64,000 nt of DNA, taken from the sequence record MT446420.1. The stretch is one strand, 5' to 3'. The stretch's first letter is position 1; the number at the start of each line of letters is the position of its first letter. The position numbers and the translations under genes were made by a program. The stretch comes from Escherichia virus TH54. The notes below the pieces were generated by a model that worked only from the letters and a program-made list of their open reading frames with translations, was not told the origin of the DNA and made no database searches. This document shows, one piece after another, positions 3,153-9,252 of the stretch.

Positions 3153-3368
3153 TCAACGGTTATGTTTTAAAATACTATAAAGTGCTTCTACTTGGCTTGC
3201 ATCCAGGTAAATAACATCATCATCTTGCTCAATGGAAATCCCACCAGTATTACCTTTAACAAAATTACATTCGCACACTTCAACCGGGCGGTATACGTCA
3301 CCAACTGGATGCTCAGGCTCCAGAACAATCACACCATTTTCAGAATTACCACTTGGGTCATATAACAT
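3153..3368 (-). CDS. hypothetical small protein
   Basis: ORF with internal ATG at 3368 preceded by GAGGAA; track start is TTG. Confidence 0.35.
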   Translation of the reverse strand: MLYDPSGNSENGVIVLEPEHPVGDVYRPVEVCECNFVKGNTGGISIEQDDDVIYLDASQVEALYSILKHNR

Positions 3369-3459
3369 TACAGTTTCCTCGCTAACCATGAAAAGAATAA
3401 ACCAATTAAAACAGGCCCTATAGCCATTGTTAACCAAGCCCAAGGTTCAAGATAGTAAA

Positions 3460-3717
3460 TCATCTCATGCTCCTGTGCCAACAATTTCTTGGTTCACGTT
3501 TAAAAATTTCATCATGCATTGATTGACAACCAACACAATATATCACACCCCTAATCGCTTGTCTCCGCGCTTCAGGAATTTTTTCATCGCAGTCAAAACA
3601 GAATTCAGCAGACTCCCTTTCAACTGCAACCTGTGCTCTCGCATGGGTGATAGCGGCTTGTACAACCGCTTCCATCTCTAACTGTTCAGCACCATCTTTT
3701 GCAAATCCAACAGCCAT
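3460..3717 (-). CDS. DksA/TraR-type C4 zinc-finger protein
   Basis: 85 aa with CFDC-x17-CVGC spacing typical of the TraR/DksA zinc ribbon. Confidence 0.5.
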   Translation of the reverse strand: MAVGFAKDGAEQLEMEAVVQAAITHARAQVAVERESAEFCFDCDEKIPEARRQAIRGVIYCVGCQSMHDEIFKREPRNCWHRSMR

Positions 3718-5327: not shown

Positions 5328-5598
5328 ATCTTTTAAACTTGAAACAATATATTGCAAATAAATCAGAAAAATGGCTATCAACCCATATTCTTTGCACTGG
5401 ACTAGTAACAGTCAGCATATAATGTGCTTTTTGTAAATTTATTCCATTTTTATTCGGACATTCTTTATTAACAGAATGGTACGTGCTTGCTACTATTTCA
5501 ATTTCCCTTTCATATCTCTCGCTATCTGTTTGTGTGGGGATAAATGCAATTCCAGCAATAACAAAAATAGAGATATACGTCCAAATCTTATATATCAT
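5323..5598 (-). CDS. small membrane protein
   Basis: 91 aa with one N-terminal TM helix (ISIFVIAGIAFIPT). Confidence 0.4.
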   Translation of the reverse strand: MIYKIWTYISIFVIAGIAFIPTQTDSERYEREIEIVASTYHSVNKECPNKNGINLQKAHYMLTVTSPVQRIWVDSHFSDLFAIYCFKFKRL

Positions 5599-5605
5599 AA
5601 GGACC

Positions 5606-6178
5606 TCAGCTTGTCAATTCGAGCCAATGTTTCCTGCATAAAGATACGTACGATTCATTCCCACCGACCAATACTTGCTCGCCGTCCTTTACAGCAGCAC
5701 CGTCGATTACTCGAGCGGTCATGGTTGCTTTCCGGCCGCAATGGCAGACGCCCTTTAATTCAACCAGTTTATCCGAAATAGCCAGAAGTCTGGCTGAACC
5801 GGGAAATAACTGACCCCGAAAATCTGTTCTTAGCCCGTAACACATAACGGGGATATTGTAATTATCAACCACTCGTGCTAACTGGTCAATTTGCTCTGGC
5901 AACAAAAATTGAGCTTCATCGACCAGGACACAATGGATGTCCTTTTGAGACTCGGCCCATTTATAGAATTCAAACAGGTTCATGTCGGCCGTTACCAGGT
6001 TTGCTTCCTGGCTAATACCAATACGTGATTTAATTTCAGATTCCGAGTCCCGATTATCAATAACAGGCTTTAGCAAAAGCACACTCATTCCACGCTCTTT
6101 ATAGGAATAAGCGGCAGTCAGCAATGAAGCTGTTTTGCCTGCATTCATTGCTGCGTAATGATAAATTAAACTCGCCAT
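5606..6178 (-). CDS. tk: thymidine kinase
   Basis: 190 aa; P-loop AAMNAGKTASLL, VDEAQF and CHCGRKA zinc motif; near-colinear with T4 Tk. Confidence 0.9.
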   Translation of the reverse strand: MASLIYHYAAMNAGKTASLLTAAYSYKERGMSVLLLKPVIDNRDSESEIKSRIGISQEANLVTADMNLFEFYKWAESQKDIHCVLVDEAQFLLPEQIDQLARVVDNYNIPVMCYGLRTDFRGQLFPGSARLLAISDKLVELKGVCHCGRKATMTARVIDGAAVKDGEQVLVGGNESYVSLCRKHWLELTS

Positions 6179-6187
6179 ATCACCTTC

Positions 6188-6373
6188 TTAAAGCGTATTC
6201 ACATAAGCTATTAATTCGTTTTCTTTCTCATCAAATCGATTAGCAAATTCTTCCAGATGGTCGGCATCTATCGGGCCATATTCATCATAAAAGGCGTTTG
6301 CTTCCGTATGCTCGTCCAAAAGCTCATGGATAAGCTCAAACAATCTACTTTTCTGACTAATACTTAAACTCAT
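6188..6373 (-). CDS. hypothetical small acidic protein
   Basis: 61-aa ORF, overlaps next gene start. Confidence 0.4.
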   Translation of the reverse strand: MSLSISQKSRLFELIHELLDEHTEANAFYDEYGPIDADHLEEFANRFDEKENELIAYVNTL

Positions 6374-6576
6374 TTCAGTTCACCATATCGTACAAATTCA
6401 GGGTGTTCACAATCACCAGAATGGAGACCTTCACCTTCATGGTTAGGACATCCTTTATTAGAACAGTACCACCAGTAATCAAATCCACATTCCATTTCAT
6501 CGTTGCATAAAACTGCGATTACTGGCCATTCGCATTTTTCACATTTGGCCGTTTTAAGAATTCGGGCTTGGCTCAT
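6370..6576 (-). CDS. Cys-rich small protein, probable zinc ribbon
   Basis: 68 aa with CxxC...C...C...CxxC...C pattern. Confidence 0.45.
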   Translation of the reverse strand: MSQARILKTAKCEKCEWPVIAVLCNDEMECGFDYWWYCSNKGCPNHEGEGLHSGDCEHPEFVRYGELK

Positions 6577-7027
6577 AATCCACCACTATTAAATCAATAT
6601 CAGGAGTAAACATGTCGATTAATTTAGAAACCTTATCCCAATCGCCGCCAGCAATACCACAACCAATACGAGGAATATAAATTACCGGTTTAAACAAAAG
6701 GGTTTCTGCCTGTAGATTTAATTCTATCATACAATTTACTAAAGCGCCATAATCAAGATTAGGGCCCGGTTCATATTGGGTGTACAAATTATAACACATA
6801 CCAAACCCAGTAGGCTTATGTTTAAAAACAATAGACATATCACCGAGTTTTTCTCTGGAACCATATTCAGTAGTGGTTTTATCTATTTCTAAAACTTTTG
6901 GATAAGCCTTCGCCAACTGTCCAGCTACGCCAGAACCCATTGTGTGAAAGCAGTTGCAACCATGTGCAATAATATTGCCTTGAAGAAAGAGGGCGACAAT
7001 ATCGCCCTTAATATACTGGGTAATCAT
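6554..7027 (-). CDS. macro-domain protein (ADP-ribose-binding/processing fold)
   Basis: 157 aa; GDIV..GNIIAHGCNCF..MGSGVAGQ and later IGCGIAGGDW resemble macro-domain glycine-rich motifs. Confidence 0.5.
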   Translation of the reverse strand: MITQYIKGDIVALFLQGNIIAHGCNCFHTMGSGVAGQLAKAYPKVLEIDKTTTEYGSREKLGDMSIVFKHKPTGFGMCYNLYTQYEPGPNLDYGALVNCMIELNLQAETLLFKPVIYIPRIGCGIAGGDWDKVSKLIDMFTPDIDLIVVDYEPSPNS

Positions 7028-7383
7028 TTAGAGTTCAATCCTCTATTATATGAATCCACTAACCTGTCAACCATACTGGTGCAGGCCGCCTTATATTTTG
7101 CACTTGAAAGAATGCAATCCATTTCAAATAATTTCTTTTCATATTTGTTGGATAATACATTCTTTTTCAAAAGTGTATGTTCAACATCATTTTGACCATC
7201 TTTATATGCCGCGGTGAGCTTGGCGCTGAACTGGATTACACAATCCACATTGCTTGCTGCGCAATAATCTTTAGCCGTCCTCGTTGCATATTCTATGATG
7301 CTGTTGTTGTCATCGCTCTGTACTGAAGCTATTCCTCCCATGCTGAATACTAACCCTATGGCTAAAGTGATAACTCTTACCAT
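7024..7383 (-). CDS. secreted/periplasmic hypothetical protein
   Basis: 119 aa with N-terminal signal peptide MVRVITLAIGLVFSMGGIASVQS. Confidence 0.45.
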   Translation of the reverse strand: MVRVITLAIGLVFSMGGIASVQSDDNNSIIEYATRTAKDYCAASNVDCVIQFSAKLTAAYKDGQNDVEHTLLKKNVLSNKYEKKLFEMDCILSSAKYKAACTSMVDRLVDSYNRGLNSK

Positions 7384-7385
7384 TT

Positions 7386-7928
7386 TTAATCCACCGTTTT
7401 TAATAGGCCTCGTGATTTTAAGTAGTTAGCTTTTTCTAGGACTTGTGAAGCATACTTATTACCAGCTTTCACATTCCACCCTGCGTTATATGATGATAGT
7501 GTTTTCCTTATATCCCCCTTATGAATATCCAACCAGTATGAAAGCTCAATGTAAGCCCAGCGTGCACTGTTCTCTCTCTTGCTTATCATCTTGATTATTT
7601 CTTTATCTGTCATTGTCCACCCAACCTGTTTCACGCGTTCGCGCACGGTTGGAAGATAATTTTGGAATATACCATATGCATGGTGCTTATCTTTATTTAA
7701 TCCAGTATTAATCCCAGCAGAACTCTCCTGCCAGGTTAAACCAGCCATGATATATCCCAAACCATTATGTTGGTGCGGATTTTCTTTGTACTTACCATTT
7801 TTCTGGAACTGTTCTCCAAACGCATAAGCATATTGAAGGTTTTCCATTTGTTCATTACTGAAAGTAGGCTCTACGCTATGGGCAGACATACTAACTGTCA
7901 ATAGTAAGGTGGCGATTACTTTTTTCAT
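7386..7928 (-). CDS. secreted lysozyme-like / lytic transglycosylase-like protein
   Basis: signal peptide MKKVIATLLLTVSMSAHS; E-S...GIFQ...YNAG pattern reminiscent of SLT domain. Confidence 0.45.
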   Translation of the reverse strand: MKKVIATLLLTVSMSAHSVEPTFSNEQMENLQYAYAFGEQFQKNGKYKENPHQHNGLGYIMAGLTWQESSAGINTGLNKDKHHAYGIFQNYLPTVRERVKQVGWTMTDKEIIKMISKRENSARWAYIELSYWLDIHKGDIRKTLSSYNAGWNVKAGNKYASQVLEKANYLKSRGLLKTVD

Positions 7929-7938
7929 GAATTCCCCA

Positions 7939-8397
7939 TTAGATATAAATCACTTTTGTGCTAATTTTTCCTTCCAGACGATTAGAGTTAACAAACGCCA
8001 TACGGCAACACATGGTTGGAGACTTCCCAGGAATAGCGGGGTTAACTGTCATTCCTAACCATAGGTTCTTGTCCGTGATTTCCAGACGAAGTGGACGGTA
8101 GTTCACATTCGGGTCAATTTGTGCTTCAACTTCCGGGAGTGGTTTCATCTCCAAGAATTCAACGATTTCTTTTACATGTGGTGTGATTTTTCCAAACAAG
8201 TCAAAAACATATTGTTCATCAATTTCACGCTGGATTGCACGGTCCAATAGGTGTGGACTGTACTTAATGAAGAATGCTTCAAGGCCTGCTTCTTTACAAG
8301 CCTTGTTGATAGCATTATTAATTTTGAGGAACTCCGTTTCAAAAATGCGACGAAGTTTATTGCGGCGAATGTAAACACTTGAATCGATAGTAGTCAT
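7939..8397 (-). CDS. regB: RegB endoribonuclease
   Basis: 153 aa from MTTIDSSVYIRRNKLRR; near-colinear with T4 RegB; AGGAG SD. Confidence 0.85.
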   Translation of the reverse strand: MTTIDSSVYIRRNKLRRIFETEFLKINNAINKACKEAGLEAFFIKYSPHLLDRAIQREIDEQYVFDLFGKITPHVKEIVEFLEMKPLPEVEAQIDPNVNYRPLRLEITDKNLWLGMTVNPAIPGKSPTMCCRMAFVNSNRLEGKISTKVIYI

Positions 8398-8399
8398 GA

Positions 8400-8453
8400 T
8401 TATCTCCTTTTGTTTGATGGGATAATCATAACTCATTTCAATCTGCTTGTACA

Positions 8454-8455
<2 letters not shown>
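8400..8455 (-). promoter_or_regulatory. early promoter (-35 TGTACA, -10 TATGAT) with GATGGGATA inverted repeat
   Basis: minus-strand TGTACA-N17-TATGAT upstream of regB SD. Confidence 0.5.
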
Positions 8456-9033
<578 letters not shown>

Positions 9034-9037
<4 letters not shown>

Positions 9038-9252
9038 TTCACTTCCTCGCCAGTTGCGATATCATATTCCACCAAACGAATGCCGTCAGTCCAACCTTGC
9101 ACGGAGATATAAGTAGTTGGATAAATCATTTCTTTACCATTCCACTGACCACCGTCCCAGCATTCCAGAAAGTCTTGTTCACCTGGTCCATTAAACCATT
9201 CAACAAATCTCTTCAAAGCTGCATCAGAACCTTCAATTGTCAATTTAGACAT
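9034..9252 (-). CDS. hypothetical small protein
   Basis: ORF from MSKLTIEGSD; Trp-rich. Confidence 0.4.

What the first reader, a model, noticed from the sequence alone, without database searches (positions are those of the whole stretch)
6370..7027. Macro-domain protein plus Cys-rich zinc-ribbon ORF immediately upstream of tk
ORF 6554-7027 carries glycine-rich motifs (NIIAHGCNCFHTMGSGVAGQ; IGCGIAGGDW) typical of macro domains, which bind or hydrolyse ADP-ribose derivatives. The overlapping downstream ORF is a 68-aa Cys-rich zinc-ribbon-like protein. Macro domains reverse ADP-ribosylation or process ADP-ribose-derived signals, so in a phage this is a plausible counter-defence or host-takeover function. 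That role is inference only.
Basis: partly seen in the sequence, partly recalled or inferred. Interest (0 to 1): 0.6.

Follow-up and report, generated by a model that had tools for sequence, protein, structure and literature searches.

The report
T4-like phage macrodomain anti-DarT gene
This is the T4-like phage gene tk.4, a small macrodomain enzyme predicted to remove ADP-ribose; its T4 counterpart was recently shown to protect that phage from the bacterial DarTG2 defence, and it is followed here by a small zinc-binding gene of unknown function, so the finding is real but largely already described.

Summary
Both ORFs exist as described, on the minus strand. They overlap by 23 nt. They are not directly next to tk, because a 61-aa tk.2 homologue lies between.

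ORF 6554-7027 is a confident macrodomain. Pfam Macro scores above its cut-off, the AF2 model has pLDDT 94.6, and the top fold matches are TARG1, DarG, BT1257, Poa1p and SCO6735. It is the positional orthologue of T4 Tk.4 (58% identity, same vs–tk.4 order) and is 100% identical to a protein of Escherichia phage RZ.

A 2025 preprint renamed T4 tk.4 as adfM, because its knockout makes T4 sensitive to DarTG2. The counter-defence idea is therefore supported, and already published.

One refinement: the catalytic Lys of DarG and TARG1 is replaced by a Gln, conserved in 254 of 255 family members. SCO6735, an enzyme proven to remove ADP-ribose from thymidine in DNA, has the same Gln. No Tk.4 protein has been tested biochemically.

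ORF 6370-6576 belongs to Pfam PF23895 ("Phage zinc binding domain"), with conserved CxxC…Cx4CxxH. Its fold has no significant structural match. It is not T4 tk.3. Its contact with tk.4 comes from a precise tk.3 deletion. Outside T4-like phages it occurs without a macrodomain, so no functional link is shown.

The parts
6554..7027 (-). tk.4 / adfM orthologue: 157-aa stand-alone macrodomain of the ALC1/TARG1-like class, Gln-type as in SCO6735 and BT1257
   Evidence: Pfam Macro 2.8e-8, above cut-off. 58% identity to T4 Tk.4, E 3e-70. AF2 pLDDT 94.6. Foldseek top hits are TARG1, DarG, BT1257, Poa1p and SCO6735. 100% identical to the phage RZ protein.
6950..6964 (-). Codons for H22-G23-C24-N25-C26. 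N25 is equivalent to SCO6735 Asn27 and DarG Asn22; G23 is equivalent to SCO6735 Val25, whose backbone carbonyl is proposed to hold the catalytic water.
   Evidence: hmmalign. N25 is conserved in 253 of 255 family members. The roles of SCO6735 N27 and V25 come from PMC9411070.
6776..6790 (-). Codons for N80-L-Y82-T83-Q84. Q84 occupies the position of the catalytic Lys of TARG1 (K84) and DarG (K80), and of the essential Gln85 of SCO6735.
   Evidence: hmmalign. Q is present in 254 of 255 family members and none has Lys.
6638..6673 (-). Codons for P119-R-I-G122-C-G124-I-A126-G-G-D-W130, the diphosphate-binding Gly-rich loop. G122 and G124 correspond to SCO6735 G126 and G128; A126 replaces TARG1 Asp125.
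   Evidence: SCO6735 G128E is reported as reduced in activity in PMC9411070.
6370..6576 (-). 68-aa member of Pfam PF23895 (Phage zinc binding domain) / phrog_2306; function unknown; not homologous to T4 tk.3
   Evidence: Pfam 2.7e-27. No similarity to T4 Tk.3. AF2 pLDDT 89. No significant fold neighbour.
6532..6543 (-). Codons for C12-E-K-C15, the first zinc knuckle (CxxC)
   Evidence: C12 and C15 are invariant in 48 family members.
6439..6465 (-). Codons for C38-S-N-K-G-C43-P-N-H46, the second zinc-ligand cluster (CSNKGCxNH signature)
   Evidence: N40, C43 and H46 are invariant; C38, S39 and K41 are conserved in at least 90%.
6573..6578 (-). TTATGA microhomology at the junction left by a precise ATG-to-ATG deletion of tk.3. 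It creates the present tk.4/Zn-ORF overlap (6554-6576) and a new Tk.4 C-terminal tail.
   Evidence: DNA alignment with Shigella phage SP18, which keeps tk.3.
6188..6373 (-). tk.2 orthologue (DUF7438), the gene that actually lies next to tk (context)
   Evidence: Pfam DUF7438 2.2e-16. 49% identity to T4 Tk.2.
5606..6178 (-). tk, thymidine kinase (context)
   Evidence: Pfam TK 4.5e-58.
7024..7383 (-). vs, valyl-tRNA synthetase modifier. Its stop codon overlaps the tk.4 start (ATGA) (context).
   Evidence: phrog_1256 1.4e-32; ORF coordinates.

Best explanation
ORF 6554-7027 is the tk.4 (adfM) gene of a Gaprivervirus-type T4-like phage. It encodes a stand-alone macrodomain, co-transcribed with its tightly packed minus-strand neighbours vs, tk.2 and tk.

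[quoted passage not shown] This enzyme most likely removes that ADP-ribose and so lets replication continue.

Its chemistry is probably that of SCO6735, not that of DarG or TARG1. It has no catalytic lysine. Instead a conserved Gln84, held in place by Asn25, would position the distal ribose, and a backbone-held water molecule would start the hydrolysis.

What is shown here: the macro fold, orthology and synteny with T4 tk.4, and the Gln-type active-site signature. What is shown by others: T4 tk.4 is needed on DarTG2 hosts, and SCO6735 hydrolyses thymidine-ADP-ribose and needs Q85 and N27. What is inferred: this divergent allele has the same activity and the same substrate.

The downstream 68-aa zinc-binding protein (PF23895) is most likely an unrelated small accessory gene of the variable tk–tk.4 region. 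It came to touch tk.4 only through deletion of tk.3.
For: Macro family and fold:
- Pfam Macro above its cut-off.
- Profile hits to BT1257 (3e-19), TARG1 (4e-17), SCO6735 (2e-15) and DarG (4e-12).
- AF2 pLDDT 94.6.
- Foldseek top 15 are all TARG1, DarG, BT1257, Poa1p or SCO6735.

Orthology:
- 58% identity to T4 Tk.4, E 3e-70.
- The gene order regB–vs.1–vs–tk.4…tk.2–tk is conserved.

Function of the orthologue:
- tk.4 is the single significant hit of the T4 library on a DarTG2 host.
- A clean tk.4 deletion is sensitive to DarTG2 (10.1101/2025.11.20.689424).
- T-even phages are all resistant to DarTG2, and AdfA and AdfN do not account for this (PMC11257639).

Active site:
- Q84 aligns with SCO6735 Q85, and N25 with N27; G122 and G124 align with G126 and G128.
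- In SCO6735, Q85A is inactive and N27S nearly inactive, and the enzyme cleaves thymidine-linked ADP-ribose on DNA (PMC9411070).
- These residues are conserved in at least 252 of 255 family members.
- Of the PADLOC defence-system models, only DarG is hit (2.5e-8, macro part only).
Against: - No Tk.4-family protein has been assayed biochemically. The T4 evidence is genetic and comes from a preprint.
- This allele is only 58% identical to the T4 allele that was tested.
- The diphosphate loop differs between the two: GCGIAGGDW here against GAGIGKGNW in T4.
- The long basic 'mobile loop' of SCO6735, whose Lys89 is important for activity on DNA, is absent.
- The catalytic Lys of DarG and TARG1 is absent, so similarity to DarG alone does not guarantee hydrolysis.
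- SCO6735-type enzymes also act on protein Glu/Asp-ADP-ribose and on RNA uracil-ADP-ribose. The natural substrate could therefore be broader or different.
Confidence: 0.65

Rival explanations
1. It is a housekeeping Poa1p-like enzyme. It would act as an ADP-ribose-1''-phosphate phosphatase or an O-acetyl-ADP-ribose deacetylase on small ADP-ribose metabolites, which is what the database label 'phosphatase' implies.
For: - The HxCNC motif and the N-terminal half resemble yeast Poa1p (PDB 6lfu, 3.5e-9; Foldseek TM 0.77).
- T4 Tk.4 is annotated 'contains A1pp phosphatase motif'.
- phrog_335 is labelled 'phosphatase'.
- One Klebsiella phage record calls the gene 'Poa1p_like family protein'.
Against: - The label derives from a motif and not from an assay.
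- The similarity to Poa1p is weaker than to BT1257, TARG1 and SCO6735 once a family profile is used.
- The only phenotype known for the orthologue is loss of DarTG2 resistance.
- From my own knowledge, T4 tRNA repair goes through Pnk and Rnl1, not the 2'-phosphotransferase route that produces Appr-1''-p.
Confidence: 0.08
2. It neutralises DarT2 mainly by binding and inhibiting the toxin, with hydrolysis dispensable.
For: Catalytically dead SCO6735 Q85A, DarG K80A and TARG1 K84A all inhibit DarT in vitro, and SCO6735 does so most strongly (PMC9411070). The two sharply divergent tk.4 allele classes exchanged between genera would fit co-evolution with a protein target.
Against: - The protein lacks the C-terminal DarT-binding domain of DarG: it is 157 aa, and NCBIfam antitoxin_DarG scores 31 bits against a cut-off of 250.
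- The near-absolute conservation of the ADP-ribose-site residues N25, Q84, G122 and G124 across 255 members argues that ligand chemistry is under selection.
Confidence: 0.1
3. Its main substrate is not DarT2-modified DNA. It would instead act on another ADP-ribosylated target: uracil-ADP-ribose on RNA, or protein ADP-ribosylation, including marks written by the phage's own Alt, ModA and ModB transferases or by other host ADP-ribosylating defences.
For: SCO6735 and TARG1 also cleave uracil-ADP-ribose on RNA (PMC13036486) and Glu/Asp-linked protein ADP-ribose. The family is present in 2760 phage records of very different groups, which suggests a broad need.
Against: - In T4, tk.4 was depleted specifically on DarTG2 hosts and was dispensable on plain K-12.
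- From my own knowledge, Alt, ModA and ModB modify arginine, a linkage that TARG1-like macrodomains are not known to cleave.
Confidence: 0.1
4. The macrodomain and the overlapping Zn-binding protein form a two-part module. The Zn ribbon would, for example, target the hydrolase to single-stranded DNA or bind the toxin.
For: - The two ORFs overlap by 23 nt, which suggests translational coupling.
- In 23 of 43 viral loci the Zn gene lies between a Tk.4-type macro gene and tk.
- In Salmondvirus-like jumbo phages the Zn gene directly follows a DUF4326 gene. DUF4326 is a domain proposed to process ADP-ribose-derived phosphates and is often fused to Macro or NADAR domains (PMC9503650).
Against: - The contact is secondary: SP18, phiD1 and others have tk.3 between the two genes, and the overlap is inherited from the tk.4/tk.3 overlap after a precise deletion.
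- T4 has a functional tk.4 and no Zn gene.
- 17 of 43 loci have the Zn gene with no macro, tk or DUF4326 gene within 3 kb, next to unrelated genes including neck and tail genes.
- All 23 macro-linked loci share one ancestral synteny, so they count as a single observation.
Confidence: 0.07

Closest known systems
Phage T4 Tk.4 = AdfM (anti-DarT factor Macrodomain; bioRxiv 10.1101/2025.11.20.689424)
   Same: Positional orthologue: 58% identity over 153 aa, the same vs–tk.4 junction, the same length, and the same signature residues H22, N25, N80, Y82, Q84, G122, G124 and W130.
   Different: It belongs to a different allele class. tk.4 is a mosaic cassette: T4 and phiD1 are 96-100% identical in the flanking genes regB, vs.1, vs, tk.3 and tk but 58% in tk.4, whereas this window is 95% identical to phiD1 in tk.4 only. 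The second Gly-rich loop differs (GCGIAGGDW against GAGIGKGNW). The downstream neighbour differs too: a Zn gene here, tk.3 in T4. This allele has not been tested.
Streptomyces coelicolor SCO6735 (PDB 5e3b) and Bacteroides BT1257 (2fg1, 2afc)
   Same: Stand-alone ALC1-like macrodomains of about 155 aa. They have Gln in place of the catalytic Lys, the Asn partner, the GxG loop, and Ala in place of TARG1 Asp125. SCO6735 removes thymidine-linked ADP-ribose from DNA and protects against DarT.
   Different: Sequence identity is only about 25%. The long basic mobile loop, with Lys89, is missing. The phage family has its own signature, HGCNC…NxYTQ. SCO6735 and BT1257 are bacterial chromosomal proteins and not phage counter-defence proteins.
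DarG antitoxin macrodomain (M. tuberculosis 5m3i, T. aquaticus 5m31)
   Same: Same fold class (Foldseek E about 3e-8). It is the only PADLOC hit. It acts on the same predicted substrate, thymidine-ADP-ribose on single-stranded DNA.
   Different: The catalytic Lys80 is replaced by Gln. There is no C-terminal DarT-binding domain, and the NCBIfam DarG score is far below its cut-off (31 against 250 bits). The gene is not paired with a toxin gene.
PhiKZ gp104, also named AdfM (Cell Rep 2026, PMC13309987)
   Same: A phage-encoded stand-alone macrodomain that counters DarTG2. Hydrolysis of DarT2-modified DNA has been shown biochemically for this protein.
   Different: PhiKZ AdfM is DarG-like, with N23 and K78. 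The T4 and window proteins are Gln-type. These appear to be two independent recruitments that share one name.
Human TARG1 / OARD1 (4j5r)
   Same: Best Foldseek hit (E 4e-9, TM 0.73-0.81). It shares the PRIGCG loop motif and W130, and it cleaves thymidine- and uracil-linked ADP-ribose.
   Different: The Lys84/Asp125 dyad is absent; the window protein has Gln84 and Ala126.
Pfam PF23895 'Phage zinc binding domain' / phrog_2306 (for ORF 6370-6576)
   Same: Full-length match (95 bits) with all signature residues.

Membership tests
Macro domain superfamily (Pfam PF01661) | Sequence match above the curated threshold | tested here: met
   34.2 bits against a cut-off of 22; residues 22-136 cover profile positions 2-117 of 118.
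Macro domain superfamily (Pfam PF01661) | Mixed alpha/beta macro fold | tested here: met
   AF2 pLDDT 94.6, pTM 0.89. 144 PDB matches at E of 1e-3 or better; all 50 listed are macrodomains or serine hydrolases designed on the TTHA0132 macro scaffold.
Macro domain superfamily (Pfam PF01661) | Two Gly-rich ADP-ribose/diphosphate-binding loops | tested here: met
   M30-G31-S-G33 and G122-C-G124-I-A-G-G align with the corresponding loops of TARG1, DarG and SCO6735. They are near-invariant in the family.
Macro domain superfamily (Pfam PF01661) | Binding or hydrolysis of ADP-ribose derivatives | not testable with these tools
   Needs an in vitro assay.
T4 Tk.4 / AdfM | Sequence orthology with T4 NP_049723 | tested here: met
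   58% identity over 153 aa, E 3e-70.
T4 Tk.4 / AdfM | Conserved position downstream of vs in the regB–tk block | tested here: met
   The order regB, vs.1, vs, tk.4 … tk.2, tk holds in the window and in T4.
T4 Tk.4 / AdfM | Required for growth on DarTG2-expressing hosts | not testable with these tools
   Shown only for T4.
DarG antitoxin (NCBIfam NF048014; PADLOC DarG) | Catalytic Lys (K80) in the macrodomain | tested here: not met
   Gln84 occupies this position. None of 255 family members has Lys there.
DarG antitoxin (NCBIfam NF048014; PADLOC DarG) | C-terminal DarT-binding domain and full-length model score | tested here: not met
   The protein has 157 aa. Only model positions 3-149 of 338 match, at 31.4 bits against a cut-off of 250. 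The PADLOC match covers positions 4-146 of 329.
DarG antitoxin (NCBIfam NF048014; PADLOC DarG) | Encoded next to a darT toxin gene | tested here: not met
   The neighbours are vs and PF23895/tk.2/tk.
TARG1-type hydrolase | Lys84/Asp125 catalytic dyad | tested here: not met
   Gln84 and Ala126 occupy the aligned positions.
SCO6735 / BT1257-type (Gln-type ALC1-like macrodomain) | Gln at the position of the DarG/TARG1 Lys, with the stabilising Asn (SCO6735 Q85 and N27) | tested here: met
   Q84 and N25 align to these residues. They are conserved in 254 and 253 of 255 members.
SCO6735 / BT1257-type (Gln-type ALC1-like macrodomain) | GxG loop (SCO6735 G126 and G128) | tested here: met
   G122 and G124.
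SCO6735 / BT1257-type (Gln-type ALC1-like macrodomain) | Extended basic mobile loop (Lys89) implicated in DNA binding | tested here: not met
   The loop after Q84 is short (YEPGPN) and has no Lys. SCO6735 and BT1257 carry insertions at this point.
SCO6735 / BT1257-type (Gln-type ALC1-like macrodomain) | Hydrolysis of thymidine-linked ADP-ribose on single-stranded DNA | not testable with these tools
   Needs an assay.
Poa1p-like ADP-ribose-1''-phosphate phosphatase | Sequence and fold similarity, including the His of the HxCNC motif (Poa1p H23) | tested here: inconclusive
   H22 aligns with Poa1p H23 (alignment shown). Foldseek TM is 0.77. The sequence match is strong only for the N-terminal half, and it is weaker than to BT1257 and TARG1 with the family profile.
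Pfam PF23895 Phage zinc binding domain (ORF 6370-6576) | Match above the curated threshold | tested here: met
   95 bits against a cut-off of 27; residues 1-66 cover profile positions 1-67 of 69.
Pfam PF23895 Phage zinc binding domain (ORF 6370-6576) | Conserved metal ligands | tested here: met
   C12, C15, C43 and H46 are invariant and C38 is conserved in at least 90% of 48 members. C24, C30 and C56 are not conserved.
Pfam PF23895 Phage zinc binding domain (ORF 6370-6576) | Actual zinc binding | not testable with these tools
   Needs metal analysis of the purified protein.

The most novel reading that the evidence does not exclude
Two separate readings remain open.

(1) The two sharply divergent tk.4 allele classes, which are swapped as a cassette between T4-like genera, could be specificity variants. 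Each would be tuned to a different DarT2 or other base-ADP-ribosylating toxin, and both would use a lysine-free, Gln-dependent mechanism that has not yet been shown for any phage enzyme.

(2) The PF23895 zinc protein could be a new small effector linked to ADP-ribose metabolism or to thymidylate metabolism. It lies next to the macro gene in T4-like phages and next to DUF4326 in Salmondvirus-like jumbo phages. Elsewhere it lies next to tk, thymidylate kinase, DHFR or dCMP deaminase genes.
Probability: 0.15. Interest if true: 0.5.

Novelty: already known. Interest (0 to 1): 0.3.

Why it matters
DarTG systems block phage replication by ADP-ribosylating phage DNA. T-even phages carry layered countermeasures against them: AdfA, the NADAR enzyme AdfN, and the macrodomain AdfM.

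Identifying this ORF as the tk.4/adfM orthologue replaces the misleading labels 'phosphatase' and 'hypothetical protein' used in most related GenBank records.

Two points go beyond the published description and can be tested directly:
- The T4-type AdfM family is a Gln-type (SCO6735-like) enzyme, unlike the Lys-type PhiKZ protein that carries the same name.
- tk.4 is exchanged between genera as a discrete cassette with two allele classes, a pattern that would fit an arms race.

The zinc protein remains a widespread phage gene with no known function.

Tried and rejected
- **Homology of the Zn ORF to T4 tk.3, which occupies the same slot:** rejected, no similarity. The real tk.3 (DUF7202) is deleted in this window.
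- **Single-sequence homologue search for the Zn ORF:** only 2 hits. A profile search was needed and gave 51.
- **Macro–Zn functional linkage tested by gene neighbourhood in 43 viral loci:** the association is limited to the shared T4-like synteny.
- **Promoter and terminator scan of 5400-9200:** counts do not exceed the shuffled controls.
- **NCBIfam and PADLOC:** nothing for the Zn ORF or for tk.2.
- **DarG membership:** rejected on the catalytic Lys, on domain architecture and on model score.
- **Weak Pfam hit of tk.2 to Unstab_antitox (E 0.052):** disregarded as below threshold.
- **Active-site geometry:** I could not inspect the coordinates of the predicted model. The active-site equivalences therefore rest on profile alignments and not on a superposition.
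Full report
**Observation.** The region lies on the minus strand of a T4-like phage genome. Megablast of 5600-8460 gives 98% identity to Yersinia phage vB_YenM_P8 and Escherichia phage vB_EcoM_RZ, and 96% to Shigella phage SP18. RZ and SP18 are classified in the genus Gaprivervirus. Read in the direction of transcription, the genes are:
- regB (7939-8454)
- vs.1 (7386-7928)
- vs (7024-7383)
- the macro ORF (6554-7027, 157 aa)
- the Cys-rich ORF (6370-6576, 68 aa)
- a 61-aa ORF (6188-6373)
- tk (5606-6178)

The two ORFs overlap by 23 nt. The only factual slip is 'immediately upstream of tk': the 61-aa ORF in between is the tk.2 orthologue (DUF7438; 49% identical to T4 Tk.2).

**The macro ORF is a real macrodomain.**
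- Pfam Macro scores 34.2 bits against a cut-off of 22, and phrog_335 matches at 9e-71.
- A profile of 56 family members hits solved structures BT1257 (3e-19), TARG1/OARD1 (4e-17), SCO6735 (2e-15), Poa1p (2e-14) and DarG (4e-12). Viral MacroD-type domains such as SARS-CoV-2 Nsp3 reach only about 5e-3.
- An AlphaFold2 model built on 55 sequences has mean pLDDT 94.6.
- Its best Foldseek matches in the PDB are TARG1, T. aquaticus and M. tuberculosis DarG, BT1257, Poa1p and SCO6735, with TM about 0.7-0.8.

The protein therefore belongs to the ALC1/TARG1-like class of macrodomains.

**What it is.** T4 has the same gene order: regB, vs.1, vs, tk.4, tk.3, tk.2, tk.1, tk. The macro ORF is 58% identical to T4 Tk.4 over 153 residues (E 3e-70).

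A literature search found that T4 tk.4 was the single significant hit when a saturating T4 transposon library was grown on an E. coli host expressing DarTG2. A clean knockout made T4 sensitive to DarTG2. The authors renamed the gene adfM, for anti-DarT factor Macrodomain, and proposed that it removes ADP-ribose from DNA (bioRxiv 10.1101/2025.11.20.689424). This filled a gap noted earlier: T-even phages are all resistant to DarTG2, and neither AdfA nor the NADAR enzyme AdfN explains that resistance (PMC11257639).

The window protein is 100% identical to the product of a 'hypothetical protein' gene of phage RZ. Related records label the gene 'phosphatase', 'macro domain-containing protein' or 'tk.4'. 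Both the gene and the function of its orthologue are therefore already in the public record.

**How it probably works.** I aligned TARG1, two DarG macrodomains, BT1257 and SCO6735 to the family profile. The sequences of these solved chains were confirmed.
- The catalytic lysine of TARG1 (K84) and DarG (K80) aligns with Gln84 of the window protein and of T4 Tk.4.
- TARG1 Asp125 aligns with Ala126.
- Gln at this position is the hallmark of SCO6735 (Gln85) and of BT1257.

SCO6735 cleaves thymidine-linked ADP-ribose from DNA and protects Streptomyces coelicolor against DarT. Its Q85A mutant is inactive and N27S is almost inactive. The proposed mechanism uses Gln85 to position the distal ribose, and a water molecule held by the backbone carbonyl of Val25 to start the reaction. 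The catalytically dead protein still inhibits DarT by binding it (PMC9411070).

The window protein has the equivalents N25, Q84, G122 and G124, with G23 at the Val25 position. Across 255 homologues of at least 120 aa, the counts are Q84 in 254, N25 in 253, Y82 in 255 and N80 in 254, and none has Lys at position 84. The family signature is H-G-C-N-C … N-x-Y-T-Q … P-x-I-G-x-G-[IL]-[AG]-G-G-x-W.

The best-supported mechanism is therefore SCO6735-like, lysine-independent hydrolysis of thymidine-ADP-ribose on single-stranded phage DNA. The steps rest on different kinds of evidence:
- **Shown here:** the fold, the orthology and the active-site signature.
- **Shown by others:** the T4 genetics and the SCO6735 enzymology.
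- **Inferred:** that this protein has the same activity.

Three caveats apply. No Tk.4 protein has been assayed. The basic mobile loop that SCO6735 uses for DNA is missing. SCO6735-type enzymes also act on protein Glu/Asp-ADP-ribose and on uracil-ADP-ribose in RNA.

**Membership.** The protein is not a DarG. It lacks the Lys and the C-terminal toxin-binding domain, and it has no darT neighbour. NCBIfam antitoxin_DarG scores 31 bits against a cut-off of 250, and the PADLOC DarG model matches only over the macro part.

The chimallivirus protein PhiKZ gp104 has also been named AdfM, and it was shown biochemically to remove DarT2-made ADP-ribose. It has N23 and K78, so it is DarG-type (PMC13309987). 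The T4-type and PhiKZ-type 'AdfM' proteins therefore look like two independent recruitments with different catalytic residues.

**The Zn ORF.** It matches Pfam PF23895 ('Phage zinc binding domain') over its full length at 95 bits, and phrog_2306. In 48 family members C12, C15, C43, H46, N40 and G48 are invariant and C38 is nearly so. The other three Cys are not conserved. This gives a CxxC…CSNKGCxNH metal site.

It is not T4 tk.3. In SP18 and in the Tequatrovirus phiD1 the order is tk.4 – tk.3 (DUF7202) – Zn gene – small ORFs including tk.2 – tk. In this window tk.3 has been removed exactly from its ATG to the ATG of the Zn gene, across a TTATGA repeat. The Zn gene therefore inherited the old tk.4/tk.3 overlap, and Tk.4 acquired a new C-terminal tail. 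T4 lacks the Zn gene altogether.

Among 43 viral loci that carry the family:
- 23 show the T4-like arrangement macro…Zn…tk.
- 3 Salmondvirus-like jumbo phages have DUF4326 followed by Zn.
- 17 have none of these genes within 3 kb.

In those 17 loci the neighbours range from thymidylate kinase, DHFR and dCMP deaminase to GNAT, a calcineurin-like phosphoesterase and neck/tail genes. I conclude that the Zn gene is an independent small gene of unknown function. A functional pairing with the macrodomain is not supported, although it is not excluded.

**Side observations.**
- tk.4 behaves as a mosaic cassette. T4 and phiD1 are 96-100% identical in regB, vs.1, vs, tk.3 and tk but only 58% in tk.4. 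The window is 95% identical to phiD1 in tk.4 but 44-78% in the flanking genes. The DNA breakpoints lie about 120-180 nt into tk.4 and at its 3' end.
- A GC-rich hairpin 20 nt into the ORF (6990-7008) is identical at the nucleotide level in both allele classes. Its folding z-score is only -1.8.

**Verdict.** The gene is, however, the known tk.4/adfM of T4-like phages and is identical to a deposited sequence. What is new here is limited to three points: the Gln-type active site, the contrast with the PhiKZ protein that shares the name AdfM, and the cassette-like allele exchange. The zinc protein remains uncharacterised. Interest is low to moderate.

Noticed in passing
window 6573-6578 (junction); compare L002:2471-2683 (SP18 tk.3): tk.3 (DUF7202) is deleted precisely from its ATG to the ATG of the Zn gene, across a TTATGA microhomology. 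This creates the 23-nt overlap and changes the last residues of Tk.4 (…DYEPSPNS against …DYESTLP…). Judging by the length of the matched span, about half of the closest relatives share the deletion; the others keep tk.3.
   Followed up: yes
window 6554-7027; L001:4923-5390 (T4); L003:1841-2320 (phiD1): tk.4 is a mosaic cassette with two allele classes. T4 and phiD1, both in the genus Tequatrovirus, are 96-100% identical in regB, vs.1, vs, tk.3 and tk but 58% in tk.4. The window, a different genus, is 95% identical to phiD1 in tk.4 only. The breakpoints lie about 120-180 nt inside tk.4 and at its 3' end.
   Followed up: partly
window 6990-7008 (minus strand), inside codons 7-13 of the macro ORF: An 8-bp GC-rich hairpin (AGGGCGAT-ATT-GTCGCCCT) followed by a T-rich run was flagged as terminator-like. 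It is identical at the nucleotide level in the window, T4 and phiD1 although the alleles diverge downstream, and it is absent in Slopekvirus VAC13. The folding z-score is only -1.8. It could be regulatory, a recombination boundary, or chance.
   Followed up: partly
L004:2595-3041 and L004:3001-3216 (Dickeya phage JA33, MH460462); also L018, L019, L021: Two ORFs left unannotated in a jumbo phage record. A DUF4326 protein (Pfam 3e-20) is directly followed by, and overlaps, a PF23895 Zn-protein homologue. Iyer et al. 2022 proposed that DUF4326 processes ADP-ribose-derived phosphates and noted that it is often fused to Macro or NADAR domains.
   Followed up: partly
L033:1171-1857, L045:3192-3731, L038:1421-2068 and 3162-3629, L043:3979-4341; window 5606-6178: Outside the T4-like synteny the PF23895 Zn gene repeatedly lies near pyrimidine or dTTP-metabolism genes: thymidylate kinase, DHFR, dCMP deaminase, a MazG-like pyrophosphatase, and tk in T4-like phages. 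It also lies near neck/tail genes and unknown genes, so this is a lead only.
   Followed up: partly
literature (not a window feature): Name collision. 'AdfM' is used both for T4 Tk.4, which is Gln-type (this family), and for PhiKZ gp104, which is DarG-type with N23 and K78. The Cell Rep paper states that no macrodomain Adf had been reported.
   Followed up: yes
L046:2965-3639, L047:2965-3639, L045:2794-3195: In some environmental phage contigs the PF23895 domain is part of a longer protein. In one case it is the N-terminal domain of a 224-aa protein, and in another the C-terminal part of a 133-aa protein carrying an extra Cys-rich N-terminus.
   Followed up: no
window 7024-7383 (vs): The upstream neighbour vs (valyl-tRNA synthetase modifier) is only 44-49% identical to its counterparts in T4 and phiD1. 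In T4 the same HIDEN-SEQ preprint reports vs as the most strongly depleted gene in minimal medium.
   Followed up: no
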